Below, piece by piece: positions 4,297 through 24,248 of a stretch of 64,000 nt of DNA (positions within the stretch are counted from its first letter, which is position 1; every line of letters begins with the position of its first letter). The notes below the pieces were generated by a model. That model did not search any database. It was not told the origin of the DNA and saw nothing but the letters and a program-made list of their open reading frames with translations. This DNA comes from an uncultured Planctomycetales bacterium (lineage in GTDB: Bacteria; Omnitrophota; Gorgyraeia; Zapsychrales; JAHFFX01): positions 6,253 to 70,252 of the forward strand of contig CAZUJQ010000002.1 of assembly GCA_964620805.1 (NCBI GenBank). The letters are read 5' to 3'. The translations under genes were made by a program, and so were the position numbers.

Positions 4297-4299
4297 TAA

Positions 4300-5454: not shown

Positions 5455-8400
5455 CTACGTGGATTGCTCTTTTTGACAATGATGACTGCAGCCATCGTCA
5501 TCGAGGATATTGCCATCATCGCAGGCTTCGGTTGAGGCTTGGAAAATGCCGTTTCCGCAAATCTCGGTGATACAATGGCGGTCGCATCCGTCCCGATCTT
5601 TGCGATTGCCATCGTCACATAATTCTCCCGGCTGGAGGATACCATTCCCACAGAGTTCTATTTGACAAGAGGCATCGCATCCATCCCCGTTTCTGGAATT
5701 GCCATCGTCACACTGCTCTGTTTTTTGATTGACAGAGCCATCTCCACAGAAGGTCTCTTTTTCTTCCTCCTCCTGCTTTTCCTGTTCTTCTTGCTTTTCC
5801 TCTACTGGAATTAGAGCATCCAGGGATTGAAGGGTTTCTTCCAGGGAGATTGAGGAGGCTGGGGAGTCGTCCTGGAGAGTTTGTTTGCTTTTGCTTTCAA
5901 TGGCCTCTATGAGATTTTTTCGTGATTCGATGGCCTTCTTGACCAAAAGAAACTGTGAGGGAATTTGTTCATTGGCTGATCTCCCCTTGGAATTTTGAGT
6001 TAAACCCACGGGTTTAGGGGTTTGCGTTGTTTTTGTTTGATTGGATTTTTTTATGGAAGACTCTTTGCCATAGGAATCAACCGAGCTTGTCTGGGTTGTT
6101 GTCTTAGGTCTGAAAGTGTCTTGGATCTTAGGCCCGGGGATCTTAAAGCGCGAAGAATAAGAACCCGTATTACTCCTGCTCCCACCGCCACCGCTGCCAC
6201 CAGCGACGACCGAAGAACCACCCTTGCCTTTTTCCACTGTCACTTCTGGGAGAGGAGTGGGACTTAGGGGAATAGACGTTATGTTGGATTTCACATTTGG
6301 ACTAGACTCATTGGCCGGCGGTTTGACAATAGGCTCCTCTTTTTTATCCGTTTGCTCTTGAGGGGGCACGGTATCGGTTATTTTCGGTTGAGGATAAGAT
6401 GATATTTCCACTTTCGGCGAAGCATCCTCCTGAGGAGGCTGGATAACGGGTTGGAGCACGGGGGCCTCTTCTTTTTTCGGCTCCATCTTGGTTTCTTCCT
6501 TTGGGGACTCGATTTTGACTTCTTCTTTCTTGGGTTCTACCTTGATCTCCTCCTGCTTCGGTTCAATCTTGATCTCCTCTTTCTTGGGCTCGATCTTGGT
6601 CTCTTCCTTCGGCAGATTGACCAGGGGCTCAGGCGGCTTGGGGGGATCGATGTCCTCTTTCTTGGCCTCAACCTTGGGCTCCTCTTTCTTGGGCTCCACC
6701 TTGACTTCTTCCTTCGGCAGACTGACCAACGGTTCAGGTGGCTTAGGGGGATCGATCTTGACTTCCTCTTTCTTAGGTTCAGTCTGGGATGATTGCGAGG
6801 GCTGTGACGTTTGAGACGGTTGCGACGCTGGAGATGGCAGAGGAGTTTTGGGCAGCTCTATCTTGATTTCCTCCTTCTTTCCCGATTCCTGGAAATTCAC
6901 CAAAACAATTTTGGGATCACTGGTTGAACTTGAGGAGCTTGTTGGTGAATTTGTCTGCGGAGGATTTTGGGCTGATGGTAAGCTAATAGGATTCGCTTGC
7001 TTAGGTTCCCCCTTTGTTGTACCCGCCGTCGAAGAGTCTGGCTGGGGAAAACGGCTGGAACCGAATTCCAACGCCCCGATATCCCAGGATGCGCCACGAT
7101 CAAACTCATTGTAATCTAAATTCGATAAACCCGGAATCACCAAAGCCGCGTTGATGGCCGGGCTGCCGGCCAAGAGATCCAGGTTATATTCAGCACCGGA
7201 ATAAAAGGAAATGATCGGCCCAATCAATTTGGGGTCCGTGCATTTGGAATGGGATTTATCTTTACAATCGCTGGCAAAGTTTTTTGTATTCCATATAATC
7301 GAGTAATCATCATTCATCGGCAGACTTCCGCAGGGACCATCGGCATTCCCTGTCCTGCCAGAGGCGTAATACAAAGCCGATAAATCTTTGCCGTCATTAA
7401 ACTCGATTCCTCCTAAAAAGATATTGTTTCTGGAGGTAAAAGTCTCTTTCCCAGTGCATTCGGAACCTGAAGACAAAACGATCACATCGCCGTTCCCTGT
7501 GATGGTGCTATTGAGGAGATTGACTTTTGTTCCTGCTCTAAAAGCAGCAGCGATGCTGCTTCCCGCGGCCCGGCAGTGGTTAAAGGTCGCCGACTTCCAA
7601 GTGAAGGGTTGGTTTTTGAAGTACCCACAATTGCCAACGATGAGTGAGTTTTCGATAACCGTGTCTGCCGAGACTTTCACTTGATTGCCCGCATTACCCT
7701 CAAAGCGGGACCGTTTAATTGTGATCGTGCCGTTTCCATTGTGATAGAGCAAATCCAGGCCATCGGAGACATTGTGGCTGAAATCCACGTTGTGGAAGAC
7801 CCAATAGCCGCCGGTGGAATGGGTCCCCAGGCCATCCCCGTATCCACCCTGATCCTGACTGTAGCAATTGTAAGGCTGCTTTCCTTGGGCCAGGCCGGCC
7901 TGCCCGGGGAGGGGATACGTTTCCCCGCATCCGCTGTAAAGGATTTTGGTCCGGTTAAAAGTCATGGTCCCGGAATTGGAGGATTGATTGGCCCCGATAT
8001 CGCCATCCCAGCCCACAAAAGAATTATTGACGATTTGGGAATCTTCGATGGTCCAGTCCTTGATCCGTCCAGCATGAATTCCCCGGTACAAACCGTGGAT
8101 GGCGACGTTTTTAATGAGAACATTGCTGCTATCCGAGGCAGAAATCCCCGTTACTGCCCATTCGCCATAGGGAGGTGCCCCGTCTCTTTTACAAGGTTTA
8201 GGGCCGAAGACCTGGCAGTCGGAATGGTCGGTTATGTCGAGACATTGCAATTCCACATTGTTGCTTGCCTGCAGGCTCAAAACTTGCCATATCCTCTCCA
8301 CGCCAAACAATTGGGGAGGATTGCTACAGTCCGCATCCCAGCCTTTGCCTAAGATTCTTGTGGGACGGGCGGGATCTGGCCCGGAAGGAATCGAGCGCAT

Positions 8401-8763
8401 GACGCAATCCCATGGCCAATTGGGATAACATTTTGAGGTGTCGCCGGTATTGGGAGCACCATAGCCTATTTTATATTCCCCCAACCCAATAATGAGAGTA
8501 TCCCCCCCTTGTAGTTTCGTCGGATTATTTCCGATGGGAGCGATGGCCCAGAAGGGATGATTCCAGGCACAGGATTGATTCTTTCCGGAGCCGGGGTAAG
8601 GATTATCAGCAAGACCAGTGCATTGGGAGGTCGTCCCACCATCGGGCCGGACGTAGTAGGTGGCGGCATGGGCTAAATTTGTTAGGAAAAGAGTCCACAA
8701 AAAAAGGATCAGGAGGTTTCGTACAATCTTATGCTGGGGGTTTGATGACATGGTTGACCTCAT
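5455..8763 (-). CDS. large secreted right-handed beta-helix (pectate-lyase-like) protein with Pro/Glu/Lys-rich repetitive linker and three C-terminal Myxococcus cysteine-rich repeats
   Basis: Signal peptide ('LLILFLWTLFLTNLAHA'); 'YYVRPDGG' start of a parallel beta-helix with 'NVAIHG' / 'SNNVELQ'-type repeat segments. Long EPKKEE/PPKPPEPLV repeat linker, and 3 copies of CGxGxxxxxExCDDGNxxxxDGCxxxC at the C-terminus. Confidence 0.7.
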   Translation of the reverse strand: MRSTMSSNPQHKIVRNLLILFLWTLFLTNLAHAATYYVRPDGGTTSQCTGLADNPYPGSGKNQSCAWNHPFWAIAPIGNNPTKLQGGDTLIIGLGEYKIGYGAPNTGDTSKCYPNWPWDCVMRSIPSGPDPARPTRILGKGWDADCSNPPQLFGVERIWQVLSLQASNNVELQCLDITDHSDCQVFGPKPCKRDGAPPYGEWAVTGISASDSSNVLIKNVAIHGLYRGIHAGRIKDWTIEDSQIVNNSFVGWDGDIGANQSSNSGTMTFNRTKILYSGCGETYPLPGQAGLAQGKQPYNCYSQDQGGYGDGLGTHSTGGYWVFHNVDFSHNVSDGLDLLYHNGNGTITIKRSRFEGNAGNQVKVSADTVIENSLIVGNCGYFKNQPFTWKSATFNHCRAAGSSIAAAFRAGTKVNLLNSTITGNGDVIVLSSGSECTGKETFTSRNNIFLGGIEFNDGKDLSALYYASGRTGNADGPCGSLPMNDDYSIIWNTKNFASDCKDKSHSKCTDPKLIGPIISFYSGAEYNLDLLAGSPAINAALVIPGLSNLDYNEFDRGASWDIGALEFGSSRFPQPDSSTAGTTKGEPKQANPISLPSAQNPPQTNSPTSSSSSTSDPKIVLVNFQESGKKEEIKIELPKTPLPSPASQPSQTSQPSQSSQTEPKKEEVKIDPPKPPEPLVSLPKEEVKVEPKKEEPKVEAKKEDIDPPKPPEPLVNLPKEETKIEPKKEEIKIEPKQEEIKVEPKKEEVKIESPKEETKMEPKKEEAPVLQPVIQPPQEDASPKVEISSYPQPKITDTVPPQEQTDKKEEPIVKPPANESSPNVKSNITSIPLSPTPLPEVTVEKGKGGSSVVAGGSGGGGSRSNTGSYSSRFKIPGPKIQDTFRPKTTTQTSSVDSYGKESSIKKSNQTKTTQTPKPVGLTQNSKGRSANEQIPSQFLLVKKAIESRKNLIEAIESKSKQTLQDDSPASSISLEETLQSLDALIPVEEKQEEQEKQEEEEKETFCGDGSVNQKTEQCDDGNSRNGDGCDASCQIELCGNGILQPGELCDDGNRKDRDGCDRHCITEICGNGIFQASTEACDDGNILDDDGCSHHCQKEQST
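6590..6790. repeat. tandem ~120-bp in-frame repeat inside the giant gene (encodes DPPKPPEPLV[SN]LPKEE.KVEPKKEE units)
   Basis: Directly visible duplicated DNA and protein segment. The + strand shadow ORFs 6451..6792 and 6488..6814 are artefacts of this repeat. Confidence 0.7.
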
Positions 8764-12067: not shown

Positions 12068-13283
12068 ACAGAGAATGGATTTTGCGGCCGATGGTCTTCC
12101 AGTCGTACTGTTGACAAACCAGCTTGCGGGCCTCTATCCCGAGACTGTGCCGTTTCTCAGACGTTTCCAGTAGAGATACAACCTCATCGGCAAACTCTTC
12201 CGCGGAATCCGCCAGCACGATGTCTTTATCAGAGGTGTAACCGATTCCTTCGGCGCCCAAGGAAGTGGAGACCACGGGCTTGGCCATGGCCATGGCTTCC
12301 AAAATTTTTAGTCTGGTCCCGCCCCCTACGCGGATGGGGCAGACAAAGATTTGGGATTTCGCCAGAAAGGGCCGCACATCCTCGACCTTGCCGGTCACCA
12401 TAATCCTGGAATCCTGAGCAGCTAACGCCAGCAAAGAGCTGCTCGGGGATTTGCCAACGACGTAAAACGTCAGCCGGGGTTTGACCTTCCAGATCAAAGG
12501 CAAAATCTCTTTACAAAAATACAGCACGCCATCGCGATTGGGCCACCAATCCATTGAGCCGGTGAAGATGAGGGATTCGTCAAACTGACGACTGACGACT
12601 GACGACTGACGACTAGATTCTCTAAGCTTTGGGCTCTGAGCTCTGGGCTGAAAATACTCCGTATCCACTCCGTTGGGAACCAGATGCACGGCTGTCCTCT
12701 TCATCCCAAGTTTAAGCAAGCTTTTCTGGTCATCCTCCGAGACCGCCCAGCACATGGAGAACTCCCCCAGACGCCGGGATTCAAAATTTTTCATGGTGCC
12801 AGCCTGATGGGTCAACAGAAACCTTTTGATTCCCGATGGCTCTACCCTTGCGCAACGCTCCAAAATCTTGTGCTCCACATTGTGCCCATCCAGGACACTG
12901 AGCGCCCCATTAAAACAATGCCGGTACTGCGCCATGTGGACATGGTCCACATGAACCGCGTCAAACGACTCTTGCCGAATCAGATATTGGATGTGTTTCC
13001 TCATCTTTAAGGAATGGTATTTCGCCACCGATACCGGCATCTGACGAAACAGCGCCTGGAATAAGACTCCCCACCCCCCTTTTTTCTTAGGCACGAGGGT
13101 CACCGAGATGCCTTCCTTTTCCAGCTCTTTGGCCATTTCAGAATCGTTTTCCTCGAAGGAAAAGCACACAAGATGCACTTGAGCGCCATGCCTAAGCTGC
13201 CGGAGGATGTGCAAAGTCCTGATCTTGCCGCCGGTGTCGGCCGGCAGGGGAAGGCGAGGAGCGAGAAAAAGGATTTTTTTCAT
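12039..13283 (-). CDS. glycosyltransferase family 4
   Basis: GT-B fold, 'GGGTRLKILEAMAMAKPVVST' E-x7-E region. Contains the heptanucleotide tract at 12574-12603. Confidence 0.7.
   Translation of the reverse strand: MKKILFLAPRLPLPADTGGKIRTLHILRQLRHGAQVHLVCFSFEENDSEMAKELEKEGISVTLVPKKKGGWGVLFQALFRQMPVSVAKYHSLKMRKHIQYLIRQESFDAVHVDHVHMAQYRHCFNGALSVLDGHNVEHKILERCARVEPSGIKRFLLTHQAGTMKNFESRRLGEFSMCWAVSEDDQKSLLKLGMKRTAVHLVPNGVDTEYFQPRAQSPKLRESSRQSSVVSRQFDESLIFTGSMDWWPNRDGVLYFCKEILPLIWKVKPRLTFYVVGKSPSSSLLALAAQDSRIMVTGKVEDVRPFLAKSQIFVCPIRVGGGTRLKILEAMAMAKPVVSTSLGAEGIGYTSDKDIVLADSAEEFADEVVSLLETSEKRHSLGIEARKLVCQQYDWKTIGRKIHSLYEELHVQQS
12574..12603. repeat. heptanucleotide tandem repeat (ACTGACG/CTGACGA x4.3) inside the GT4 coding sequence
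   Basis: Directly visible 'actgacgactgacgactgacgactgacgac'; it encodes the linker 'SRQSSVVSRQ'. Confidence 0.8.
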
Positions 13284-15568
13284 ATCTCCTCATAAAGCCG
13301 TTCGTATTTCTCAACCATGTGCTCCAAGGAATAATGCTTTCGGATGAAATCCGAAGCCTCCCGGCCCATCTCTAAAAAGAGACTTCTGTCTTTAACGACC
13401 CGACCCAGGACCTTGACCAATCCGGTGACATCCCCCGGTGCGACAAGAAATCCGTTTTTGCCGTGCCAAATGATTTGCGGGATCCCTCCCACTTTTGTGG
13501 CCACAACTAGACGGGCACAGGCCATGGCCTCCAAAAGCGATAGAGGCACGCCTTCGGTTAAGGAGGTTAAGACAAAGATATCCAGAGCCGGGTAGAGGGA
13601 TGAGATGTCATCGATTAAGCCGGTAAAAAGGATGTGCTTCTCTAAATTTTTGTCCCGGACCAAGGCTTTCAAATAAGTCTCCTCTGGGCCATCGCCCACG
13701 ATCAGAAATTTAACAAGGGGGAACTCTTTTTGGATTTGGTCAGCCGCTTCGATCAACATCGCTTGATTTTTTTCGCGGCTCAGGCGCCCCACCGTGCCGA
13801 TCACGGCTTCTTCGTCCGAGATCCCATAACGGCTCCGAGCCGTTTTTCTTAAAACCGGATCATAGGAAAAGCGGTTCACATCCAGGCCGTTTGGAATCAC
13901 CTGTCTTTTTTGCGCCTTCAAATCCGGCAGGATGTTCTCAGCCACAACAACCACCCGACGAAAAAATGCCTTTAAAAGCCACCTGTCCAGTTTTTCATAC
14001 CAACGGACCGGCCGGGACATTTTTGTGTATCCATGGACCGTGGCGAGGAGGGGAACACCGTTTCCAGCCGTTGCCAGCAATCCCATAAGATCGGATTTGT
14101 AGTTGTGGGTATGGACAATATCAATTCGGTTTTGCCGGATAAATTTCTTTAGTAGCCGGCTGGTCCTCCAATCCCATCGTCCCCGGCTTTTAAATAAGGC
14201 GGTCTTCAGCCCCGCCTCCCGGGCCTTGTGGACAATCTCCAGATGAGGATTTCTCTCATCTTCGATGGCACCGATCATGGGGATAAATTTCCCGTGGTTC
14301 AAATGACGGGCCAGTGACAGGGCCACCCGCTCTGCGCCGAAAAAGCCTCCGCTGCTTATAAAATGTAAAACTTTTTTTATTAAAAGGGCCTGATAAAAAT
14401 TTTCGTATTCCCTCATCATCTGAGGAATGGTAAATTCTTTCTGGGCTCTTTGTCGTGCGTTTTGGCCCATGCTTTGTCTTTTCTCGGGATCCTCAATGAG
14501 TGTGAGCAAGGCCTCCTTTAAGGCCCGGGAATCGCCGGGGGCCACCAAAAGGCCATCCACCCCCTCCCGGATGAGTTCGGGATTGCCGCCCACACGGGTG
14601 GCGACCACGGCCTTGCCGGCCGCCATGTATTCTAAGATGGCGTTGGAGGTGCCTTCGCTCAAAGAGGGCAACACACAGATATCCGCGGCCTCGATAAAAC
14701 GCGAGACATCTTCGCGTTTTCCAAGAAAAAGGACATGCCTTTCCAATCTCTTTTTTCTGATGATCTCTTGTAGCTTTCCCCCCATTTTGTCTTCACCAAT
14801 CAACGCCAATCGGACCCGCGGATGGTCTACCACGATCTCCGGCAAGGCCTCGATGAGATAGATATGCCCTTTGACTGGCCGAAGATTCGCCACATGCACA
14901 ATTAAGGAAATGGGGTCACACCCCATTTCCCCACTTGAGGGAAATGGGGTGTGACCCCATTTTATTGGTGATTCCACGCCGTTATAGATCACCTCAATCC
15001 GCTCCGCGGGGATTCCCTCTTCTTTCATCATCCTCTCTTTTACGGCACCGGCCACCGCAATGAAGGTGTGCACCCAGCGGTTGATCAACTTGTAGGCGCT
15101 TCGATGAATGGGCTTGCGGCAGAACCCCATGTCCCGCCGGTTCGACACAATATGACGGACTCCCGCCCAATGCGCCCAGAACGTGCCCCAGATATCTGAT
15201 CCGAAATGATAGGTTTGGAGGATCTGGATGCGGTTGGCTTTGAGAAACCGCATAAAGCGGAGGCCCTGCACCATCCCCGAGATCCCGTAGATTCTCACCA
15301 CGCGGAAAACCTGGAATTCGCAGCCCGCCTCCCGCATCAGCTGTTGGGTGGACTCACAGATAGGATTCAGGCTGAGAACGAACACTCGATACCGTGAAGG
15401 GTCAAGATGAGAGATGAGCTGGTAAATCTGCTTTTCTGCCCCGGCCTGGAGGTCTTCCAGGACGTCGGTGAGCAATGCTAGGCGGATGGGTTGAGTGTTT
15501 TTCATATGAATATAAAATGTTGCTAATGTTTCCAAGGTTTCCAAAGTTGCCGAGGTTACCTGATTCAT
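13280..15568 (-). CDS. two-module glycosyltransferase (GT4-GT4 fusion); true start probably ATG at 15505 (MKNTQP...)
   Basis: Two successive GT-B GT4 units in one 762-aa ORF. The first 21 codons (MNQVTSATLETLETLATFYIH) are encoded by the family-A repeat. Carries the in-frame hairpin element at 14905-14962. Confidence 0.6.
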   Translation of the reverse strand: MNQVTSATLETLETLATFYIHMKNTQPIRLALLTDVLEDLQAGAEKQIYQLISHLDPSRYRVFVLSLNPICESTQQLMREAGCEFQVFRVVRIYGISGMVQGLRFMRFLKANRIQILQTYHFGSDIWGTFWAHWAGVRHIVSNRRDMGFCRKPIHRSAYKLINRWVHTFIAVAGAVKERMMKEEGIPAERIEVIYNGVESPIKWGHTPFPSSGEMGCDPISLIVHVANLRPVKGHIYLIEALPEIVVDHPRVRLALIGEDKMGGKLQEIIRKKRLERHVLFLGKREDVSRFIEAADICVLPSLSEGTSNAILEYMAAGKAVVATRVGGNPELIREGVDGLLVAPGDSRALKEALLTLIEDPEKRQSMGQNARQRAQKEFTIPQMMREYENFYQALLIKKVLHFISSGGFFGAERVALSLARHLNHGKFIPMIGAIEDERNPHLEIVHKAREAGLKTALFKSRGRWDWRTSRLLKKFIRQNRIDIVHTHNYKSDLMGLLATAGNGVPLLATVHGYTKMSRPVRWYEKLDRWLLKAFFRRVVVVAENILPDLKAQKRQVIPNGLDVNRFSYDPVLRKTARSRYGISDEEAVIGTVGRLSREKNQAMLIEAADQIQKEFPLVKFLIVGDGPEETYLKALVRDKNLEKHILFTGLIDDISSLYPALDIFVLTSLTEGVPLSLLEAMACARLVVATKVGGIPQIIWHGKNGFLVAPGDVTGLVKVLGRVVKDRSLFLEMGREASDFIRKHYSLEHMVEKYERLYEEI
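14905..14962. repeat. in-frame palindromic hairpin pair (GGAAATGGGGT-cac-ACCCCATTTCC ... GAAATGGGGT-gtg-ACCCCATTT) inside the GT4-GT4 gene
   Basis: Two 11-bp-stem hairpins 8 nt apart; translated in frame as 'KWGHTPFPSSGEMGCDPIS'. The same element recurs at 22584-22665. Confidence 0.75.
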
Positions 15569-15723
15569 CCAACATTCTTAAAGTTGCCCTTAAGTTGCCC
15601 AAGGTTACTGATTGATCCGACAATTTGTTGTTGGGTTAAGGCTTTGCAACCTCAAATAACCTTTCTGCAACCTCAAAAGGGCAACCTCGGCAACCTCGGC
15701 AACATGGGAAACATAGGCAACTT
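15519..15723. repeat. family-A element copy A2
   Basis: Left arm gttgctaat-gtttccaag-gtttccaaa-gttgccgag-gttacc; core tgattcatccaacattcttaaagttgcc; right arm ggcaacctc-ggcaacctc-ggcaacatg-ggaaacata-ggcaactt. Confidence 0.8.
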
Positions 15724-15727
15724 TATT

Positions 15728-17125
15728 TTACTTAGCATCTAAAAGGGGAACACCCCGCACATAGTTGCGTGACAACCGCTGGCCATAACTCCGGTATTTG
15801 TGAGTCCTCCCTTTACCATTACCATCTGGAGGGATTTTTTTATTTTGACTCTCCTCTCGATTAATCAAAATCATCCGTCCCACCAATCCCGCAAAAATCC
15901 ACAGATACCCTCCCATCTCCAGATACGTCCAGCGGTCCCCAAAGGTGTTGTTGACCATGGCCACAATCACCGCCAAGGAGAATCCTAATCCCAACGCTTC
16001 GGAGAGATCGTCTTTGCCTCTTCGATAGAGTCTCCATCCCATGCTCATCATTTTCCAGACCAGGATAACGAAAATCGCCAATCCGATGATCCCTTGTTCC
16101 ACCAGGACTTTCAGATAGATGTTGTGCGTATCGCCTAGGACGAATCCCATCCGCCGGAAAACCCCGAAGCCAATCCCCAGGAAGGGTTCCTGTTTCCATA
16201 AATCGATGGCCTGTTGCCACACCAAAATCCGGTTGCCGGCCGAGGATTCCAACTGGCCGTAGACATCGCGGGTCATTTCGATTCTTTCGATGACTTGATC
16301 GGGAAGAAGGCTTTGCCAGAATAAAATAAGAAAAACCAGGGGAACAAAAAGAAAGTTGCGTTTGATTAAAAAAAGCAGAGTTAATCCTACGACCATCCCG
16401 AGGTAGGCCCCCCGTGAGTATAAAAATAAAATGCAATACGTGTTGAGCATGATCAAGACGAACAGCCCGAGCCGTTGAAATTTATTTTTAATGGAAAGAA
16501 ATCCGCTCAAAAGGACAATGGTGATCTGATTATAGAAGGCCGCCACTTCATTGGGCCCCAGGAAGACAAAGGTGGCGTTGATCTTGTCGCGGGAAAGAAG
16601 AGCGTGGTACCACGATATTTGATTGATCGTGTAATAGTCCATAATGAGGAGAGCCGCCCCCATAACGAAGATGACTTCTTTGACCTGTCTTCGGGTCTTG
16701 ACCACGTTCATTGTGAGGAAAAAGAACACAGCCAGCAAGACGTAGTTTTTCCAGTCTTGGACCCGGTCATCGGAGAAATCAAAAGGGGTAAAGTATCCCA
16801 GGGTCATATAACCTTTGAGGAGCGAACAGTACGTATAGATGATCAGGACCCACGCAATCCCTTGAAGAGAGCTCCCGTTTTTGAACTTGTCGCGATGCCT
16901 CATCTTATTAATGAAAATCCCAAGAATGAGACACGCGATCAGGAGATCATTGATGTCCTTGCCTAAAGGGAATACCGTCAGGCGCTCCACGACGTTTCTA
17001 AGCGGCAAAAGAAAGGTCAGGAAAAGAAACGGCCGAAAGGTGCGGCCCGAGGCTGCCATGACGCAGCACAGCAGGGCCGCAACGTAGATAATCAGCGGAG
17101 CTATATTTTTAAGGGAGGCTAGCAT
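15728..17125 (-). CDS. O-antigen ligase / Wzy-like polytopic membrane protein
   Basis: About 10-12 predicted TM helices with a large periplasmic loop, as in the O-antigen ligase/polymerase family. Confidence 0.5.
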   Translation of the reverse strand: MLASLKNIAPLIIYVAALLCCVMAASGRTFRPFLFLTFLLPLRNVVERLTVFPLGKDINDLLIACLILGIFINKMRHRDKFKNGSSLQGIAWVLIIYTYCSLLKGYMTLGYFTPFDFSDDRVQDWKNYVLLAVFFFLTMNVVKTRRQVKEVIFVMGAALLIMDYYTINQISWYHALLSRDKINATFVFLGPNEVAAFYNQITIVLLSGFLSIKNKFQRLGLFVLIMLNTYCILFLYSRGAYLGMVVGLTLLFLIKRNFLFVPLVFLILFWQSLLPDQVIERIEMTRDVYGQLESSAGNRILVWQQAIDLWKQEPFLGIGFGVFRRMGFVLGDTHNIYLKVLVEQGIIGLAIFVILVWKMMSMGWRLYRRGKDDLSEALGLGFSLAVIVAMVNNTFGDRWTYLEMGGYLWIFAGLVGRMILINREESQNKKIPPDGNGKGRTHKYRSYGQRLSRNYVRGVPLLDAK

Positions 17126-17150
17126 TTTAAAATTTTGATCAGCCTATCAG

Positions 17151-17323
17151 GTTGCCTTTGTTTCCAGTGTTTCCGAGGTTGCCGATGTTAATTTATTTAC
17201 GTGACATTTTTAAGGTTGCTTAATGTTGCCTGATGTTGTCTTTTCCAACCTTTAGTAACTTCAGGCAACATCTTGAAAGGCAACCTTGGTAACTTTGGCA
17301 ACATAGGAAACATTGGCAACTTT
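17151..17323. repeat. family-A element copy A3 (core variant, leader ORF disrupted)
   Basis: gttgccttt-gtttccagt-gtttccgag-gttgccgat ... ggcaacctt-ggtaacttt-ggcaacata-ggaaacatt-ggcaacttt. Confidence 0.8.
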
Positions 17324-17891
17324 ATCTTGCCTCTTTACGAGGTTTGCTTTGAACCCTCGCCGGCACCCCCACAACCGTCGCCCCTTCCGGAACATCATCG
17401 ATCACGACCGAATTGGCGCCGACACGGGCATGATTTCCCACGCGGATCGCCCCCAAGACTTTTGCCCCGGTGCCGATGTACACACCATCGCCAATCACCG
17501 GCACGCCAGAATCTCCCAGTCCTCTGGTCCCAATGACGACGCCCGGGCCAATCGAGCAGTTCTCTCCCATCACGACATCGCTATGGAGGATGATTCCCCC
17601 AAAGTGGCCTACGTACAGTCCCCTCCCAATCTGAGCGCTGGCCGGAAGCGAGATGCCGGTCGTCATCTCAATCCATTTGAAGAGCAAAAACACCTCAAGA
17701 CGCAGGAGATGAGAGATCAACGGAAATTTCAAAGCCTGCGCCCACCGGCCGAAACGATACACCGCCAACGCCCAGATTCCCTGCTCGAAGAAAAGGTATA
17801 TCCGGTCTTGTCTCCGGCTATTTCGAAGATACCGGCGAATGTCTGCTGTGAAATTTGGGAACATCATGGTATAAGTTTCCAACGTTTCCAT
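17322..17891 (-). CDS. hexapeptide-repeat acetyltransferase (serine acetyltransferase-like / WcaB-like); start probably MMFPNF at ~17866
   Basis: Left-handed beta-helix hexapeptide repeats ('IGPGVVIGTRG', 'IGDGVYIGTGAKVLGAIRVGNHARVGANSVV') preceded by a SAT-like N-terminal helical region. The first 8 codons come from a degenerate repeat. Confidence 0.55.
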   Translation of the reverse strand: METLETYTMMFPNFTADIRRYLRNSRRQDRIYLFFEQGIWALAVYRFGRWAQALKFPLISHLLRLEVFLLFKWIEMTTGISLPASAQIGRGLYVGHFGGIILHSDVVMGENCSIGPGVVIGTRGLGDSGVPVIGDGVYIGTGAKVLGAIRVGNHARVGANSVVIDDVPEGATVVGVPARVQSKPRKEAR

Positions 17892-17894: not shown

Positions 17895-18707
17895 TTATGC
17901 TTTGTTTGGACAAAGCAATCTCAAAACATTCTCTTTCGTAAAGACCTTCATGTCCAACGGATTCTCCAGGAAATTCACCACATCGCGGTGCACCTTCCGC
18001 CAGTCGGCTTTATCCACCACTTGATAGAGGAAATCCCGCCAATTGTCTTCCCGCGGGATCTCCTTTGTCCATCCCGTTTGCGTCAAGGCATTATGCAGCA
18101 ACCGAATGTTGGGTTTGATATCCCTCCAGCGGGATAGATACCATCCCAAATCAAAAAAGTCCCGGCCTTTGGTGTATTTGCGGCTCAGCAAAGCAGACAC
18201 TTTGCCGGCAAAGAATGACGGAAGATCGAAGGTCAAAAAGGCAAGCGGAAAATATTTGTTGATGATTTGTATTTCGAGCCGGCTGCCCTCAGGCGGGTTG
18301 GTATCAATTTCGATCTTGACCGATAATTTCTGTTTTTTTAACGGGGAGAGACCTGCTTCATACAGCAGTCCCTCGAACTTAACAAAGGCCGATTGAACCG
18401 TTTTGACTTCATTGTAAGTCACCGAAACGTTGTAGCCGGCCAGATCCAATTCCTGCTTGAGCTTCTTGATGAGCTTGACAAAAGACAATGTCCTGCCTTG
18501 TACATGGGAAAAGTCCAAATCCTCGGAAAAGCGAGGCAGATTGTGCAAAAACCGCAGGGCCGTTCCTCCCCAAAAAGCCGTTGTTTGAAAAATCCCGTCA
18601 TCATGGAGAATCCTTAAGACATAGGCCTGCAGATATTCCCGCATCGTATTGAGCCTGACCTGGGATCCTTCCTTCGCGCCCGTCAGCTCTAGGAGGTAGT
18701 CTTTCAT
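17895..18707 (-). CDS. nucleotidyltransferase AbiEii/AbiGii toxin family protein
   Basis: 'FWGGTALRFLHNLPRFSEDLDFS' (DUF1814/AbiEii signature); 4-nt overlap with the upstream AbiEi-like gene. Confidence 0.65.
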   Translation of the reverse strand: MKDYLLELTGAKEGSQVRLNTMREYLQAYVLRILHDDGIFQTTAFWGGTALRFLHNLPRFSEDLDFSHVQGRTLSFVKLIKKLKQELDLAGYNVSVTYNEVKTVQSAFVKFEGLLYEAGLSPLKKQKLSVKIEIDTNPPEGSRLEIQIINKYFPLAFLTFDLPSFFAGKVSALLSRKYTKGRDFFDLGWYLSRWRDIKPNIRLLHNALTQTGWTKEIPREDNWRDFLYQVVDKADWRKVHRDVVNFLENPLDMKVFTKENVLRLLCPNKA

Positions 18708-19342
18708 AAAGTTTTCTCTTTCTTTTTATAGGCCAGGACATAATCTTTAATCATGGCAGCGGATTGTTCCATACGCGGTTTGCCGAAGCGCCTGGCGTAT
18801 TCCGATAATTTCCGCAGGTTGATTTTTTCGACATTTTGCAGGCGCAATTCCGCCAGATAATCCATCGAGACGTCCACATGCCTGAAATAGATCAGATCCA
18901 GAATGGATTTTTCCGGCTCCGCCATAAAAGCTGTTTGCTTTCTGACCTCCAGGGAATGATATCCCCAAAAAAGCGACTGCTGAATGTGCCGGTAATCAAA
19001 AATCCCCACCGGGGTATTAAAACGGCCCTGGCGTTTCGTGGTGACCGCCGTATAAACATTTACAGCCTCCGGAATCAGATTGTGAAATTCCAAGGCCTTC
19101 TCTAAGCTGATGTAGGAAGGCCTCTTCAGAAGGCTGGCGACAGCCGGCTCGAAGATTTCAATCCCTCGATAAGGTTCGGCAAGGATATAAATCCCCCGCT
19201 TTAACTGGATCAACTTGCCGGCCTTTTCCCAGCGGCTGATTTGAACCTTAATCGCATCCGGCTTGAGGGCCCCGGCTGAAAGAATCTGAGTATTGATAAC
19301 CGGCAGATGCTTCACCTGTGAGATGAGCTCAGCAAAGTCCAT
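18704..19342 (-). CDS. AbiEi-family antitoxin (type IV TA / abortive infection partner)
   Basis: 212-aa protein immediately upstream of and overlapping AbiEii; N-terminal wHTH-like region. Confidence 0.5.
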   Translation of the reverse strand: MDFAELISQVKHLPVINTQILSAGALKPDAIKVQISRWEKAGKLIQLKRGIYILAEPYRGIEIFEPAVASLLKRPSYISLEKALEFHNLIPEAVNVYTAVTTKRQGRFNTPVGIFDYRHIQQSLFWGYHSLEVRKQTAFMAEPEKSILDLIYFRHVDVSMDYLAELRLQNVEKINLRKLSEYARRFGKPRMEQSAAMIKDYVLAYKKKEKTL

Positions 19343-20636: not shown

Positions 20637-21626
20637 TCAAGCGAGATTGTCTGTTGGGACATCCGCTTTTGTCCATCCCAATTTCCATAAGAGAAACTTG
20701 AGCACATAAAAAAACTGCGCCGCGTAAGGTTTCAGGAAACGGTACGGCAGGGAAAATCTTATTCTCTCTGCCTCTTGCGGCCAGAAGTGTACGCCGATCC
20801 AGGGGAGATTTAAAACCGCGAGAGCGTAACAACGCGCCGCCTTTAGGTACTCCCGTATCCGAGAATAGAACATCCCGAATCGGTAATAATTGACAGCCCG
20901 GAACTTCCTGTATTCCGTCCCCCTCAGACGGCTGCGGATGACCGGTTTATCCAGGATTGTCAAATGGTCTTTGAGGTGAAGGTCCAGGCCTTTGCTGAAG
21001 TTCCCGGGGTGCCTTCGAAACTTTGCCAAAGGGCGATTGGTGTACTCAAAACGGTATTTTGTAGCAATACGGATCCACAAATCGTGATCCTGGTTGGTCA
21101 GAAGACTTTCATCGAAATGGCCCATTTCCTCGGAGACTTTTCGGCGGATGACCACCGTCAAGTGCCACACGAAATTGTCGAAAAGGAGGCTCTTAAACGA
21201 TTGTTCCCGATACCTCCCATCGACCGAGGTTTTGTAAATCTCGCTGTTGGCGTCCATGAAATAGGTTCCCGCACAAACAAAGGCAACGTCAGGATTCTGG
21301 TCCAGAACCGCTACCTGCCGTTCCAGCATGTCGGGCATCAGGGCATCGTCATTGCCGAGGATCACGTAATATTCGCCCTTGGCGTGACGCACGCCGGTAT
21401 TCATCGCCCCCGGTGGCCCCAAATTCTCCTGGTAAATGTACCGAATCCTGTCGCCGTATTTTTTCAAGACCTCAGCGGTATGATCCGTTGAGCCGTCATC
21501 GACAACGATGATTTCATAGTCTAAGAAAGTCTGCGCCAGGACGCTGTCGATCGCCTCACAGATATAATGAGGCCGGTTATACGTTGGTATTATGACGCTG
21601 ACTTTGGGCATGGGGCGATCACTCAC
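20637..21626 (-). CDS. glycosyltransferase family 2 (likely ATG start at 21611)
   Basis: 'KVSVIIPTYNRPHYICEAIDSVLAQTFLDYEIIVVDDGSTDHT'. The listed ORF starts at GTG 5 codons upstream of the first ATG. Confidence 0.7.
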   Translation of the reverse strand: MSDRPMPKVSVIIPTYNRPHYICEAIDSVLAQTFLDYEIIVVDDGSTDHTAEVLKKYGDRIRYIYQENLGPPGAMNTGVRHAKGEYYVILGNDDALMPDMLERQVAVLDQNPDVAFVCAGTYFMDANSEIYKTSVDGRYREQSFKSLLFDNFVWHLTVVIRRKVSEEMGHFDESLLTNQDHDLWIRIATKYRFEYTNRPLAKFRRHPGNFSKGLDLHLKDHLTILDKPVIRSRLRGTEYRKFRAVNYYRFGMFYSRIREYLKAARCYALAVLNLPWIGVHFWPQEAERIRFSLPYRFLKPYAAQFFYVLKFLLWKLGWTKADVPTDNLA

Positions 21627-21637
21627 TTTGAATATAA

Positions 21638-21802
21638 GTTGCCGATGTTTCCAAGGTTTCCGAGGTTGCCAAGGTTACCCTATTCATCTGACATCCTTTA
21701 AGGTTGATTGAGGTTATCTATGAGGGAAACCTCACGTAACTTTAGGCAACCTCTAAGAGGCAACCTTGGTAACTTTGGCAACATAGGAAACATCGGCAAC
21801 CT
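21638..21802. repeat. family-A element copy A4
   Basis: gttgccgat-gtttccaag-gtttccgag-gttgccaag-gttaccct; core attcatctgacatcctttaaggttg; right arm ggcaacctt-ggtaacttt-ggcaacata-ggaaacatc-ggcaacctg. Confidence 0.8.
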
Positions 21803-21820
21803 GATTGTCGGCTTCTTTTA

Positions 21821-23098
21821 TTAGACGCCGCCCCCAAACGCCTTGATGGCCTCCTGATAAGCCTTAAGCGATTCTTCCACTAATTTTTGATAGGAATAGG
21901 CTGTCCGGACCTTCTTTAACCCGTTGGCAGCCAGTTTAAGGCGTAACGCCTCATCTTGCAAGAGACGCAGGATGGCCTTCGCCAGCATCATAGCGTCCCC
22001 GGGATTAACCAGCAGGCCGTCTTTTTCGTGATGAATCAATTCTTTTAAACCTCCAGCGGTGGAAGCGATGAGGGCGCACCCCGAGGCCATCGCCTCCAGG
22101 GCGCTTAAGGGCAAACCCTCATCGTAAGAAGGCATGATCAGGATGGAACTTTTTCTTAACCAAATTTTAAGCTGATCCGGTGGCAATGTCCCCAGATATT
22201 CAAAATTTTTTGCTCCTATGGCTTCCCGCAGCATTTGACTGTTTTTCTTTCCATCAGAGGAGAAGGCATCAGCGCCCGCGACCGCCAATTGGACGTCAGG
22301 GAATTCTTTAATGACCAGGGGCAGGGCTTGGGCCATCACATCAATGCCTTTTCTTGGAATCAATCGACCGGCAAACAGGATCTGGCAAGGATCTTTTTTT
22401 CCATTGGGAGAGAAAATTTGACTATCAACCGCGTTATAAATGGTCTTGATATTCCGATTAATCCTCCAGACCTGCTTTACGAAATCCGCCGTATCCCTAG
22501 AGACCGCCGCCAAGCCATCCGCCTTAAGCAGGGTGTCCCGCTGCATGGCCCAAGAGATTCGCTCCTTTAAGCTCAAGGTGGTTGAAATGGGGTCACACCC
22601 CATTTCCCTGCCTAACGTTTCCTGGGTTGGAAATGGGGTTGGAAATGGGGTGTGACCCCATTTCCTAGACCATCCGTGCAGGCGAAAAAAGACCGGAAGG
22701 CGATTGTGGCGCCGGGCGTAAATAAACCCTTGCCGGAAATAATCGAAAGTTTCCACGATATCCAGGGCATATTCCGCTTGGACGGACTCGATTTTCTTCG
22801 CCACGGCTTTCGAATACCGCAAATCATTCAAGGGAAGAAACCGCTCAATCTTCCAGACCCCCGGGAAGAGATCGTCATCAAAGGGGACGTGGTGAACAAA
22901 AATATTTTGTCCCAATCGGCCGCGGTTTAAATCCCCTTCGTCCTGGCAAAGGATATGGACGGAGTGCCCCGCCTCACTCAAGGCCCTGGCATAATGGGCC
23001 GTGAAGGTCTCGATCCCGCCGGAATCTTGGTGAAAATTTCGACACAAAAGACAGATGTTCATCGGACTCCCCATCTCTCTCTTACTCAAGGGATTCAA
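21821..23098 (-). CDS. glycosyltransferase family 4
   Basis: GT-B fold, 'ILIMPSYDEGLPLSALEAMASGCALIASTAGG'. Carries the in-frame hairpin element at 22584-22665 ('RKWGHTPFPTPFPTQETLGREMGCDPIS'). Confidence 0.7.
   Translation of the reverse strand: MNPLSKREMGSPMNICLLCRNFHQDSGGIETFTAHYARALSEAGHSVHILCQDEGDLNRGRLGQNIFVHHVPFDDDLFPGVWKIERFLPLNDLRYSKAVAKKIESVQAEYALDIVETFDYFRQGFIYARRHNRLPVFFRLHGWSRKWGHTPFPTPFPTQETLGREMGCDPISTTLSLKERISWAMQRDTLLKADGLAAVSRDTADFVKQVWRINRNIKTIYNAVDSQIFSPNGKKDPCQILFAGRLIPRKGIDVMAQALPLVIKEFPDVQLAVAGADAFSSDGKKNSQMLREAIGAKNFEYLGTLPPDQLKIWLRKSSILIMPSYDEGLPLSALEAMASGCALIASTAGGLKELIHHEKDGLLVNPGDAMMLAKAILRLLQDEALRLKLAANGLKKVRTAYSYQKLVEESLKAYQEAIKAFGGGV
22584..22665. repeat. second copy of the in-frame palindromic hairpin pair (loop cac ... 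loop gtg), here with a 33-nt spacer holding an extra half-arm
   Basis: 'gaaatggggtcacaccccatttcc...ggaaatggggtt ggaaatggggtgtgaccccatttcc'; translated in the same frame as the copy at 14905-14962. Confidence 0.75.
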
Positions 23099-24248
23099 TC
23101 AAACCGGGAAGACCCGTAAATGTGACCTGAGTCCCTGCGTATTTCCTAGAGAACGTTCTATCTACATCCTGGGCCACAACAAAAACTTTGGCTTCAGGAT
23201 ATTGATAAAGAAAGGCCTCTAAGTTGTGACCGTCAAATTGATTAGCTTTCCATTTACATTCTATGGCAATAGGGCTAATGACCTTTCCCTTATTAGGAAT
23301 CACAAAGTCTATCTCGTGGCCTCGCTTGTCACGCCAGTAATGAATCTGGCGCTTATAAAGCTTCGCTAGAATTTCATTAAGAACATAATGTTCCCACAAA
23401 ATCCCCAAGTCCTGTTCCCGTAATTCGTACCATCCGCGGTAATAACAGACAAATCCTGTATCAAATCCATACACCTTGGGAGCTGAAATAATCTCGGTGG
23501 GACGATGAGAACTAAAAGGATGAACAATGTGAGCTACAAATGTCATCTCCAGAACCTTAAGATAATTGGTAATCGTGGTCCGACTCACCTCACAGGGAGC
23601 CGTAAATCGTGTGGCTTCAAAAATGCTCCCGCTTTGGGCCATAATCAATTCGATAAATTTTTGAAAAGAATACTTTCGCTCCAACCGAAACAATTCTTGA
23701 ATGTCCTTAGCCCAGTAAGCATCCATCCATTCCTGAAAATCAGCTTCTGGAAACTCCTTGGATAAAAGAAACGGTGGTAACCCCCCTCTTAATAAGCGAA
23801 ACTTGAAATCCTTGATTTCGAAATCCATCAGATCTTCATTAATAGCTGGAGCCAACCATATTTCCTTCTTTCTTCCTGACAACGTGTCTTTAAATTTTGA
23901 AGACGCGCCCAGAGTCGAGGAACCTGTGGCCAGAATTTTGATTCCCGGATAATGATCGGCAGCGATCTTAAGAAGCTGGGCTGGATTCTCATGCCGGTGA
24001 ATCTCATCCAACACAATACGCTCCCCCTTATTCTTAAAACTTTCCAGGAATTCTTCCGGATCTTCCATGAGGCGGCGTACCCGAGGCAACTCGCAATCGA
24101 AATATTCAACGGTATCCAAACTTTTAGACAAATACGTCTTGCCTACACGTCGGACTCCGGAAAGCCAAATCACTGAGCGCGTTTGCCATGACTTTTCTAT
24201 CTCTTTGACCCAGTAGTTTCTTTTTACCATTTGTATATATAATATCAT
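23082..24248 (-). CDS. ATP-binding protein (AAA domain + DUF4143)
   Basis: Walker A 'GVRRVGKT', Walker B 'IVLDEIH'; C-terminal DUF4143-like region. Similar in architecture to 30075..31343. Confidence 0.6.
   Translation of the reverse strand: MILYIQMVKRNYWVKEIEKSWQTRSVIWLSGVRRVGKTYLSKSLDTVEYFDCELPRVRRLMEDPEEFLESFKNKGERIVLDEIHRHENPAQLLKIAADHYPGIKILATGSSTLGASSKFKDTLSGRKKEIWLAPAINEDLMDFEIKDFKFRLLRGGLPPFLLSKEFPEADFQEWMDAYWAKDIQELFRLERKYSFQKFIELIMAQSGSIFEATRFTAPCEVSRTTITNYLKVLEMTFVAHIVHPFSSHRPTEIISAPKVYGFDTGFVCYYRGWYELREQDLGILWEHYVLNEILAKLYKRQIHYWRDKRGHEIDFVIPNKGKVISPIAIECKWKANQFDGHNLEAFLYQYPEAKVFVVAQDVDRTFSRKYAGTQVTFTGLPGLIESLE

What the first reader, a model, noticed from the sequence alone, without database searches (positions are those of the whole stretch)
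14905..14962. Palindromic hairpin-pair element inserted in frame inside two different GT4 glycosyltransferase genes (RPE-like)
GGAAATGGGGT-cac-ACCCCATTTCC followed by GAAATGGGGT-gtg-ACCCCATTTCC occurs at 14905-14962 in the GT4-GT4 fusion and at 22584-22665 in the GT4 at 21821-23098. Both are translated in the same relative frame, giving ...KWGHTPFP...EMGCDPIS..., and leave the ORFs intact. Spacers are 8 and 33 nt; the second carries an extra half-arm.

In-frame palindromic insertions into protein-coding genes are well known only in a few lineages, such as Rickettsia RPEs. Finding one here, in surface-polysaccharide enzymes, suggests either a peptide-module-encoding mobile hairpin or a recombination hotspot that creates GT variants.
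Basis: seen in the sequence. Interest (0 to 1): 0.75.

Follow-up and report, generated by a model that had tools for sequence, protein, structure and literature searches.

The report
In-frame palindromic hairpin repeats in genes
A tiny palindromic DNA repeat sits as back-to-back hairpin pairs inside three unrelated protein genes of one uncultured Omnitrophota-like bacterium without breaking them, a new example of the "selfish DNA inside genes" known from Rickettsia and some REP-rich bacteria.

Summary
A 21-25 nt perfect palindrome (GGAAATGGGGT-CAC-ACCCCATTTCC) and its reverse complement (loop GTG) form a pair at 14906-14963 and at 22583-22665. Each pair lies inside an intact minus-strand GT4 glycosyltransferase ORF. 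A third pair lies in the cytochrome c biogenesis gene ccsA of the same organism and is read in a different frame.

Sixteen GT4 orthologues, 119 CcsA homologues and 20 homologues of the fusion's first GT4 domain lack the sequence. Independent assemblies carry it identically, so it is neither ancestral nor an artefact. The encoded 18-28 residues fall in loops of otherwise confident AlphaFold models.

In ccsA and in the second GT4 the spacer is host gene sequence, so hairpin units flank and partly overwrite 12-21 nt of target. The DNA is conserved, not the peptide.

There are no target-site duplications, no GTAG/CGTC tag, no fixed spacing and no transposase gene in the window. The best reading is a lineage-specific REP/REPIN-like selfish palindrome tolerated in coding loops. 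Intragenic REP dimers encoding 20-30 aa are already described, so this is a new member of a known kind. Genome-wide copy number and the mobilising enzyme could not be determined.

The parts
14906..14930 (.). Site 1, hairpin unit P: GGAAATGGGGT-CAC-ACCCCATTTCC (11-bp stem, 3-nt loop). On the gene's sense (minus) strand it reads EMGCDPI(S).
14931..14939 (.). Site 1 spacer CCACTTGAG. The outer C and G extend the long palindrome, leaving 7 unpaired nt. With flanking bases it encodes PSSG.
14940..14963 (.). Site 1, hairpin unit P' (reverse complement of P, loop GTG), with outer arm ACCCCATTTT. On the sense strand it reads KWGHTPF.
13280..15568 (-). Host gene 1: GT4-GT4 fusion glycosyltransferase (762-aa ORF). 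The real start is probably the ATG at 15505, because codons 1-21 are a translated 9-nt intergenic repeat. The element encodes residues 203-221, in the linker between the N- and C-terminal Rossmann domains of the first GT4.
22583..22607 (.). Site 2, hairpin unit P: (T)GAAATGGGGT-CAC-ACCCCATTTCC. On the sense strand it reads EMGCDPI(S).
22608..22628 (.). Site 2 spacer. Sense strand: ACC CAG GAA ACG TTA GGC AGG = TQETLGR. It derives from the native TQGR/TEGR codons of orthologues, plus 9 extra nt.
22629..22640 (.). Site 2 extra half arm GGAAATGGGGTT, a 12-nt tandem duplication of the inner arm. Sense strand: CCATTTCCAACC x2, read as PTPF. It is inferred to come from slippage.
22641..22665 (.). 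Site 2, hairpin unit P': GGAAATGGGGT-GTG-ACCCCATTTCC. On the sense strand it reads KWGHTPF.
21821..23062 (-). Host gene 2: GT4 glycosyltransferase (413 aa as called in public assemblies = P0001; the longest ORF runs to 23098). The element and spacer encode residues 134-161. That stretch is the only segment of the AlphaFold model with pLDDT below 50. It replaces the conserved FFNRTEGRxDPWP of orthologues.

Best explanation
This is a lineage-specific family of miniature palindromic repeats of the REP/REPIN (and Rickettsia RPE) kind that has colonised coding sequence.

Anatomy:
- The unit is a 21-25 nt perfect hairpin with an 11-bp stem and a 3-nt loop.
- Units occur as an inverted pair (loop CAC, then loop GTG), so a pair can also fold as one 20-25 bp hairpin.
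- In at least two of the three sites, the two units lie on either side of 12-21 nt of host gene sequence. They add, and partly overwrite, a few codons in a loop or linker.

Why the genes survive:
- A unit is about 7 codons long.
- Five of its six unit-by-frame readings have no stop codon.
- The insertion points are loops, so the proteins only gain an 18-28 residue, probably disordered, loop.

What is shown: the repeat exists, it is absent from homologues, the spacer is of native origin, the sites are loops, and it is reproducible across assemblies.

What is inferred: the units are selfish DNA. They spread through a single-stranded hairpin-recognising route (an IS200/IS605- or RAYT-like Y1 transposase acting in trans, which leaves no target-site duplication), possibly helped by replication template switching. 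They are tolerated rather than selected for a function.
For: - Identical 21-25 nt palindromes lie at three unlinked loci of one organism: window sites 1 and 2, and ccsA on L029/L030/L031 from the same three samples. L017 and L029 are 99.988% identical.
- The element is absent from 16 orthologues of GT4 no. 2 at 40-81% identity, from 119 CcsA homologues, and from 20 homologues of the first GT4 domain.
- The ccsA spacer matches the hairpin-free homologue at 13/21 nt (62%). Gene-wide DNA identity is 62.6%, and the shuffle p is 0.001.
- The site 2 spacer keeps the native T-Q...G-R codons.
- Net gains are +14 aa in ccsA, +17 aa at site 2 and about 0 at site 1.
- The pairs fold as long hairpins with z = -7.3 to -9.1.
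- The units are open in 5 of 6 frames. The ccsA copy uses a different frame for unit P.
- Both tested sites are loops. P0001 residues 134-161 are the only segment with pLDDT below 50 in a model of mean pLDDT 85.6. The CcsA insert lies in the coil 515-533 between two helices.
- No direct repeats flank any copy (sequence).
- An unrelated hairpin pair (CCCCTCCC...GGGGAGGGG) sits in frame in ccsA of another Omnitrophota-like organism. One homologue has a single hairpin at the same site, which points to growth unit by unit.
- Intragenic REP dimers encoding 20-30 aa are documented elsewhere (PMC3733652).
Against: - Only three pairs and one degenerate single hairpin were seen in about 81 kb. None is intergenic, whereas REPs and REPINs are typically abundant and extragenic.
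- There is no GTAG or CGTC tag and no fixed spacing.
- No Y1-transposase, RAYT or IS200/IS605 gene is among the 38 window ORFs scanned with Pfam or the domains listed for the rest.
- The exact 21-mer scan found no other doublet in 185,579 species-representative genomes or in the JGI metagenome collection. This suggests low copy number and a narrow host range.
- The units partly overwrite native codons, which a clean cut-and-paste insertion would not do.
- Site 2 removes a motif that is conserved in all orthologues, so that enzyme may be impaired. Nothing here shows the proteins are made or active.
Confidence: 0.6

Rival explanations
1. There is no dedicated transposase. One founding hairpin was copied locally and between loci by replication template switching or microhomology-mediated patch repair. 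That process would write an inverted copy a few tens of nt away and overwrite native codons. The pairs would then be mutational by-products of a palindrome-prone replication or repair system, not a transposing element.
For: - The units overwrite rather than simply add sequence. At site 2, FFNR and IDPWP are replaced, and the site 1 linker length is unchanged.
- Short similarities exist between the unit arm and the replaced native sequence, for example GAYCC and TTT.
- There is a 12-nt slippage duplication of an arm.
- No target-site duplications were seen, no transposase gene is in the window, and apparent copy number is low.
- Another family shows a single and a double hairpin at the same ccsA site.
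Against: Three unlinked loci share identical 21-25 nt sequences and the same CAC-then-GTG order. Moving the sequence between loci needs a donor-to-target step that template switching within one replication fork does not supply. Microhomologies of 3-5 nt are weak evidence.
Confidence: 0.2
2. The element is kept because it does something for the host. It could be a DNA or RNA structure inside surface-polysaccharide genes that modulates expression. It could be a pair of inverted repeats allowing site-specific inversion of the short spacer (an intragenic phase-variation switch). It could also be a selected peptide insert that changes enzyme specificity.
For: - Two of the three pairs lie in glycosyltransferases of one O-antigen or exopolysaccharide cluster.
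- The palindromes are perfect, not decayed, and identical in all assemblies.
- The site 2 insert follows the conserved HGW motif in the N-terminal domain. That this domain binds the acceptor rests on general knowledge of GT-B enzymes, not on a test here.
Against: - The third pair is in ccsA, a housekeeping membrane protein.
- The peptide differs between copies because the frame differs.
- No orthologue conserves the insert.
- The spacer has the same orientation in every assembly: five loci for the GT sites and four for ccsA.
- There is no Rfam match.
- The inserts are predicted to be disordered.
Confidence: 0.1
3. The element is an assembly or sequencing artefact, or an ancestral protein segment that happens to be palindromic.
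For: All data are short-read metagenome assemblies, and palindromes can confuse assemblers.
Against: - The sequence is identical in ENA (MEGAHIT-style k141 contigs) and JGI assemblies at all three loci, and in Logan assemblies for the second GT4 and ccsA. An NCBI copy is on record for all three host proteins.
- Reading frames are intact at all three loci.
- Homologues from 40 to 81% identity lack it.
Confidence: 0.02

Closest known systems
Intragenic REP singles and dimers (GTAG- and CGTC-tagged REP superfamilies; Di Nocera et al. 2013, PMC3733652)
   Same: Both are 20-40 nt palindromic units, often as close inverted dimers that can fold into a larger structure. Both lie wholly inside ORFs without breaking them, and dimers encode 20-30 aa (here 18-28). 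Both occur at different sites in different genes, and shorter homologues lack them. The richest GTAG example, Opitutus terrae, belongs to the same PVC superphylum as Omnitrophota (my own knowledge).
   Different: There is no GTAG or CGTC tetranucleotide at either end. All pairs seen so far are intragenic, whereas REPs are mostly intergenic. Copy number appears low. No REPtron or RAYT gene was seen in the DNA available.
REPINs mobilised by RAYTs (Bertels and Rainey 2011, PMC3116915)
   Same: Both are two REP-like palindromes in inverted orientation that together form one long hairpin in single-stranded DNA. The doublet is the predominant form, and there is no target-site duplication.
   Different: REPINs have a characteristic fixed spacing (71 or 110 bp in P. 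fluorescens SBW25) and carry their own spacer. Here spacing is 34, 58 and 41 nt start to start, and the spacer is host sequence. REPINs are extragenic and number in the hundreds. The RAYT association could not be tested.
Rickettsia palindromic elements, RPEs (Ogata et al. 2000, 2002; summarised in PMC10969869 and PMC3733652)
   Same: Both are palindromic selfish DNA inserted in frame in unrelated, apparently functional genes, adding a peptide segment compatible with the fold.
   Different: RPEs are about 100-150 bp, and each family encodes a conserved peptide read in a constant frame. Here the units are 21-25 nt and the frame is not constant. The phylum differs and there is no sequence similarity.
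Small dispersed repeats (SDR, 21-27 nt) of Nostoc and relatives (Elhai et al. 2008; from my own knowledge; SDRs are named as a comparable repeat class in PMC3116915)
   Same: The mobile-looking unit is very small (about 21-27 nt) and forms a hairpin. It is found in varied contexts, including nested or adjacent copies.
   Different: The SDR lineage is cyanobacterial and the sequences are unrelated. SDRs are often embedded in heptamer repeats or in HIP1. A paired arrangement around target DNA is not, to my knowledge, described for them.
MITEs that make in-frame fusions (intragenic ERIC; Coxiella QMITE1 and QMITE2, PMC5896051; review PMC10969869)
   Same: Both are non-autonomous repeats with inverted-repeat symmetry that are sometimes tolerated inside ORFs.
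   Different: MITEs are 70-300+ bp, have terminal inverted repeats plus target-site duplications, and mostly affect gene ends. Here there is no duplication and the units are far smaller. A true MITE of 146 nt with 16-nt terminal repeats is present in the same genome and looks quite different.

Membership tests
REP (repetitive extragenic palindrome) superfamilies | A 20-40 nt palindromic unit able to form a stable stem-loop | tested here: met
   A 25-nt perfect palindrome with an 11-bp stem and a 3-nt loop
REP (repetitive extragenic palindrome) superfamilies | A conserved GTAG or CGTC tetranucleotide at one end of the unit | tested here: not met
   Flanks of all six units were read. Outer flanks are TTAA, TGGT, CCAT and others. 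There is no GTAG or CGTC.
REP (repetitive extragenic palindrome) superfamilies | High copy number, predominantly intergenic | tested here: inconclusive
   Three pairs were seen in about 81 kb of this genome, all intragenic. One degenerate single hairpin lies at a gene boundary. The whole genome could not be searched. The exact 21-mer scan of public collections gave no other doublet.
REPIN / RAYT system | Two REPs in inverted orientation that form one long hairpin | tested here: met
   Stems of 20-25 bp, -22.6 to -35.3 kcal/mol, z = -7.3 to -9.1 at all three loci
REPIN / RAYT system | A characteristic fixed spacing, with a spacer that travels with the element | tested here: not met
   Start-to-start distances are 34, 58 and 41 nt and the spacers are unrelated. 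The ccsA and site 2 spacers are host sequence.
REPIN / RAYT system | A cognate RAYT (Y1 transposase, PF01797) gene flanked by the same REPs in the genome | not testable with these tools
   None was found among the 38 window ORFs scanned with Pfam, in the domains listed for the other window genes, or in the genes listed for L029.
Rickettsia palindromic elements (RPE) | In-frame insertion in ORFs that stay intact, absent from homologues | tested here: met
Rickettsia palindromic elements (RPE) | An element of about 100-150 bp encoding a family-specific conserved peptide in a constant frame; Rickettsia lineage | tested here: not met
   Units are 21-25 nt and pairs are 58-83 nt. The first unit is read as KWGHTPF twice and as NGVTPHF once. 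The nearest named homologues are Omnitrophota.
MITE (DDE-transposon derived) | Terminal inverted repeats plus flanking target-site duplication | tested here: not met
   The two units are inverted repeats of each other, but no direct repeat flanks any of the three pairs.
Intragenic inverton (invertible segment between inverted repeats) | Both orientations of the segment present in the population | tested here: inconclusive
   All assemblies show one orientation: five loci for the GT sites and four for ccsA. Read-level data are not available.
CRISPR-like repeat-spacer-repeat | Direct repeats with spacers of foreign origin and regular length | tested here: not met
   The units are inverted (loops CAC and GTG). 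Spacers are 9, 20-21 and 33 nt and of host origin.

The most novel reading that the evidence does not exclude
The unit of spread is a single hairpin of about 21 nt (7 codons), among the smallest mobile elements known. An unknown mechanism would place two inverted units on either side of a short stretch of target DNA and partly overwrite it. Coding-compatible hairpins of this type would be a general, unrecognised source of loop insertions in Omnitrophota proteins. Two unrelated families were seen in ccsA alone.
Probability: 0.2. Interest if true: 0.65.

Novelty: new member of a known kind. Interest (0 to 1): 0.42.

Why it matters
If confirmed genome-wide, this extends protein-coding palindromes from Rickettsia and a few REP-rich Proteobacteria and Verrucomicrobia to the uncultured phylum Omnitrophota. 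It would give a clean case in which the DNA hairpin, not the peptide, is the conserved entity. The finding that the two hairpins bracket host sequence, rather than carrying their own spacer, bears on how such mini-elements are written into DNA. Practically, these inserts lengthen proteins, replace conserved motifs and can mislead annotation and orthology calls in metagenome-assembled genomes. No effect on polysaccharide structure is shown.

Tried and rejected
- A 41-aa synthetic query made of all five open translations of the hairpin was run to find every protein with an in-frame copy. It returned nothing, because no candidate shared three 5-residue words, not even the window's own proteins. 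This says nothing about absence.
- Exact 21-mer scans were run. GTDB representative genomes gave 2 hits. JGI metagenomes gave 8 hits. Viral contigs gave 0. All hits but L005 are single hairpins followed by a T-run, in unrelated organisms of 46-65% GC, so they look like terminators.
- Rfam gave no match in the window and no tRNA was found.
- The syntenic cluster of a relative (L032) does not contain an orthologue of the 762-aa fusion. Site 1 therefore has no close empty-site comparison. The best homologues are at most 51% identical.
- Contigs of five other Omnitrophota-like organisms (L018-L028, L032-L035; 39-44% GC) contain no copy.
- Other ideas were considered and dropped. One RYYYAAC/GTTRRRY match in the site 2 spacer suggested an integron attC site, but it is chance-level. 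A CRISPR-like unit is excluded by the inverted units and host spacers. No footprint of an excised DDE transposon fits, because there are no duplications. The shared frame in the two GT4 genes as evidence of a peptide module has about a 1 in 2 chance and is contradicted by ccsA.
Full report
**1. What is in the sequence**

At 14906-14930 the plus strand reads GGAAATGGGGT-CAC-ACCCCATTTCC, a perfect 25-nt palindrome with an 11-bp stem and a 3-nt loop. Nine nt later, at 14940-14963, comes GGAAATGGGGT-GTG-ACCCCATTTT.

At 22583-22607 the first sequence recurs, with T for the first G. After 33 nt, which include an extra half arm GGAAATGGGGTT at 22629-22640, the GTG version lies at 22641-22665.

The GTG unit is simply the reverse complement of the CAC unit. 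Each pair is therefore itself a long palindrome that looks the same on both strands except for its centre.

- All nine exact copies of the 9-nt arm in the 64 kb window are in these two places.
- The repeat finder groups them as one four-copy family, D15.
- A scan for perfect hairpins shows that site 1 is a 55-nt palindrome with a 24-bp stem and a 7-nt loop.
- As single-stranded DNA the pairs fold as one long hairpin at -30 to -35 kcal/mol, z = -7.3 to -9.1, with 0 of 200 shuffles as stable.

The site 1 spacer is 9 nt, not 8.

**2. Context**

Both pairs lie inside uninterrupted minus-strand ORFs.

- ORF 13280-15568 is a fusion of two GT4 glycosyltransferases (Pfam). The element encodes residues 203-221 (KWGHTPF-PSSG-EMGCDPI-S). 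That stretch lies between the N-terminal and C-terminal Rossmann domains of the first GT4.
- ORF 21821-23098 is a single GT4, called as 413 aa from 23062 in public assemblies (P0001). The element and spacer encode K134-T161.

The surrounding 35 kb is a surface-polysaccharide cluster. It holds rmlABCD-type genes, Wzm/Wzt, Wzy, Wzz-like and export proteins, and several GT2 and GT4 genes. No transposase domain was found in the 38 window ORFs I scanned with Pfam. Nor was one in the domains on record for the other window genes. Rfam and tRNA scans are empty.

**3. Not an artefact, and one organism**

Both GT loci, elements included, are present in ENA ERZ27245685 and JGI 3300025157. The second GT4 locus is also in Logan SRR5747861, and an NCBI copy of both host proteins is on record. 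L011 is 99.995% identical to the window over 21 kb. The element regions are identical in every assembly.

The nearest named homologues of the host proteins are from Candidatus Omnitrophota/Omnitrophica. The phylum assignment is therefore an inference from homology.

**4. A third copy in an unrelated gene**

I scanned public collections for the exact 21-mer AAATGGGGTCACACCCCATTT. The hits were nine single hairpins followed by T-runs in unrelated organisms, which look like terminators, and one doublet, L005.

In L005 the pair lies inside a 671-aa cytochrome c biogenesis protein, CcsA (PF01578). It reads ...GLRR-NGVTPHF-DQQAGSK-MGCDPI-MEKIY....

A variant of this protein differing by one residue (P0294) is encoded in exactly the three samples that hold the window. 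L017 and L029 are 99.988% identical. All three pairs therefore belong to one organism.

About 81 kb of its genome could be inspected. That DNA holds three pairs, all intragenic. It also holds one degenerate single hairpin, AAATGGG-TCACACCCCATTT, at a gene boundary (L017 16925-16945).

**5. Insertion, not ancestry**

- *GT4 no. 2.* Sixteen orthologues at 40-81% identity read RLHGW-FFNRTEGRxDPWP-TLS where the window protein reads RLHGW-SRKWGHTPFPTPFPTQETLGREMGCDPIST-TLS, a net gain of 17 aa.
- *CcsA.* Of 120 sequences, only the query has the segment, a net gain of 14 aa.
- *First GT4 domain of the fusion.* The 1.84-billion representative search gave homologues of at most 51% identity. Twenty of them have a non-palindromic linker of about the same length. 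Here the element has replaced the linker rather than lengthened it.

**6. The inserts are in loops**

- An AlphaFold model of P0001 built from the orthologue alignment has mean pLDDT 85.6. Its only segment below 50 is residues 134-161, exactly the element-encoded stretch. It lies between strand 124-128 and helix 165-180.
- The CcsA model also has mean pLDDT 85.6. It places N516-I535 in the coil 515-533 between helices 482-514 and 534-565, with pLDDT falling to 54.

**7. What the unit is**

The three spacers (9, 33 and 20-21 nt) are unrelated to each other.

In ccsA the 21 nt between the hairpins is GATCAGCAGGCGGGAAGTAAA. It aligns without gaps to GACCAGAAAGCGCTTCGTGAA at the same place in the nearest hairpin-free homologue (L034). 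The match is 13/21 = 62%, the same as the gene-wide DNA identity of 62.6% (shuffle p about 0.001).

At site 2 the spacer ACC CAG [GAAACGTTA] GGC AGG keeps the native T-Q-G-R codons of orthologues (ACG CAG GGA AGG in L032).

The spacer is therefore host sequence, and the hairpins sit on both sides of it. They also overwrite some native codons:
- At site 2, FFNR became SR, followed by a unit and a 12-nt slipped duplicate of the arm.
- At site 2, IDPWP was replaced by the other unit.
- At site 1, the whole linker was replaced at about equal length.

No pair is flanked by a direct repeat.

Translation of the unit is open in five of the six unit-by-frame combinations. Only GGA AAT GGG GTG TGA closes. 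The ccsA copy reads unit P in a different frame from the GT4 copies. The palindrome is what is conserved, not a peptide. With two of the three possible frame combinations open, the shared frame in the two GT4 genes has about a 1 in 2 chance.

**8. A second family elsewhere**

In ccsA of another Omnitrophota-like organism (L022, 41.5% GC) a different pair sits in frame: CCCCTCCC-ACAA-GGGGAGGGG ... CCCCTCCC-TCGAT-GGGAGGGG. It is read as PPTRGGAPTNIPLPRWEGQGEG. Another homologue (P0084) has a single copy, PLPRGEGLGEG, at the same position. This suggests that coding hairpins recur in the phylum and that arrays grow one unit at a time.

**9. Mechanism**

Shown:
- a repeated perfect palindrome at three unlinked coding sites;
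- inverted pairing;
- host-derived spacers;
- no target-site duplication;
- loop locations;
- intact frames.

Inferred:
- The units are selfish DNA. They spread through a route that recognises hairpins in single-stranded DNA, as IS200/IS605 and RAYT Y1 transposases do, which leaves no duplication (PMC3116915).
- Alternatively or additionally, they spread by template switching at palindromes, which would explain the overwriting and the slipped half arm.
- They persist because a 7-codon, mostly stop-free unit in a loop is nearly neutral.

I put 0.6 on the selfish REP-like reading, 0.2 on a transposase-free mutational origin, 0.1 on a host function and 0.02 on artefact or ancestry.

**10. Comparison with known systems**

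The closest described case is the set of intragenic REPs and REP dimers of Di Nocera et al. (PMC3733652). [quoted passage not shown] They sit at varied sites and were detected by comparison with shorter homologues.

This family fails that superfamily's GTAG/CGTC tag. It also fails the REPIN criterion of fixed spacing with an element-borne spacer (PMC3116915). Its association with a RAYT could not be tested.

It works like Rickettsia RPEs (PMC10969869) but is 2-5 times smaller and does not keep a peptide frame.

I file it as a new member of the known kind 'palindromic selfish repeats tolerated in frame'. It is not a member of any named family.

**11. Limits**

- Only about 81 kb of the genome was reachable, so the true copy number and the intergenic share are unknown.
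- The third copy was found by searching for the element, so only the window's 2 pairs per 64 kb is an unbiased density.
- Site 1 lacks a close empty-site homologue.
- Expression and activity of the decorated proteins are untested. The loss of a conserved motif at site 2 may mean that enzyme is impaired.

Noticed in passing
window 4290-4393, 15500-15731, 17133-17330, 21620-21810, 24565-24670 with 25072-25158, 34181-34373, 38180-38402: A second, unrelated repeat family lies in the gaps between genes of the polysaccharide cluster. It consists of arrays of 9-nt periodic units (GTTGCC/GTTTCC + 3 nt, 4-5 units) facing the inverted array (GGCAAC/GGAAAC) about 80-130 nt away. There are seven sites in 35 kb. 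The first 21 codons of ORF 13280-15568 are just this repeat translated (TLETLETLA), so the real start is probably 15505. The blocks could be cassette boundaries, regulator-binding arrays or a MITE.
   Followed up: partly
window 26633-26778 and 59589-59734; also L017/L029 from 16959 and L036 6526 / L037 2841 (near contig ends): A 146-nt element is 100% identical in two window copies, with about 16-nt terminal inverted repeats (GAACTTGAGTTTGGCA ... TGCCAAACTCAAGTTC). It looks like a MITE with at least four copies in this genome, and metagenome contigs tend to break at it. In L017 the degenerate single GGGGT hairpin lies 12 nt from its end.
   Followed up: partly
L022 5000-5075 (ccsA of another Omnitrophota-like organism; protein P0123; single-hairpin version in P0084): An unrelated G+C-rich hairpin pair (CCCCTCCC-ACAA-GGGGAGGGG and CCCCTCCC-TCGAT-GGGAGGGG, plus half arms) is inserted in frame at residue ~198 of CcsA. 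It is read as PPTRGGAPTNIPLPRWEGQGEG. In-frame palindromes may be common in this phylum.
   Followed up: partly
window 28438-28677: Five different perfect palindromes (stems of 10-13 bp) are packed into 240 nt of the intergenic region between the ABC-2 permease gene and a GT2 gene. None is related to the GGGGT hairpin.
   Followed up: no
window 36372-36488 and 37131-37240: Two nested inverted repeats (34-35 nt arms, 88-91% complementary) bracket the dTDP-4-dehydrorhamnose 3,5-epimerase (rmlC) gene at 36513-37097, as if the gene were a cassette.
   Followed up: no
window 6452-6893, inside ORF 5455-8763: A 27-nt (9-codon) periodic coding repeat with about 10 copies lies in a 1102-aa protein with C-terminal DUF4215 repeats.
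   Followed up: no
window 17895-19342, 23082-24248, 24669-25097, 30075-31343: Defence- or addiction-like genes are interspersed in the glycan cluster. They include an AbiEii-family toxin gene with an upstream 212-aa partner, two AAA_14/DUF4143 ATPases and a 23S-rRNA-intervening-sequence-type four-helix protein. This suggests a mosaic, frequently exchanged locus.
   Followed up: no
L017/L029 16925-16945: A single degenerate copy of the hairpin (AAATGGG-TCACACCCCATTT, one G missing from the 5' arm) overlaps the start of a short ORF. It is the only unit seen outside a pair.
   Followed up: partly
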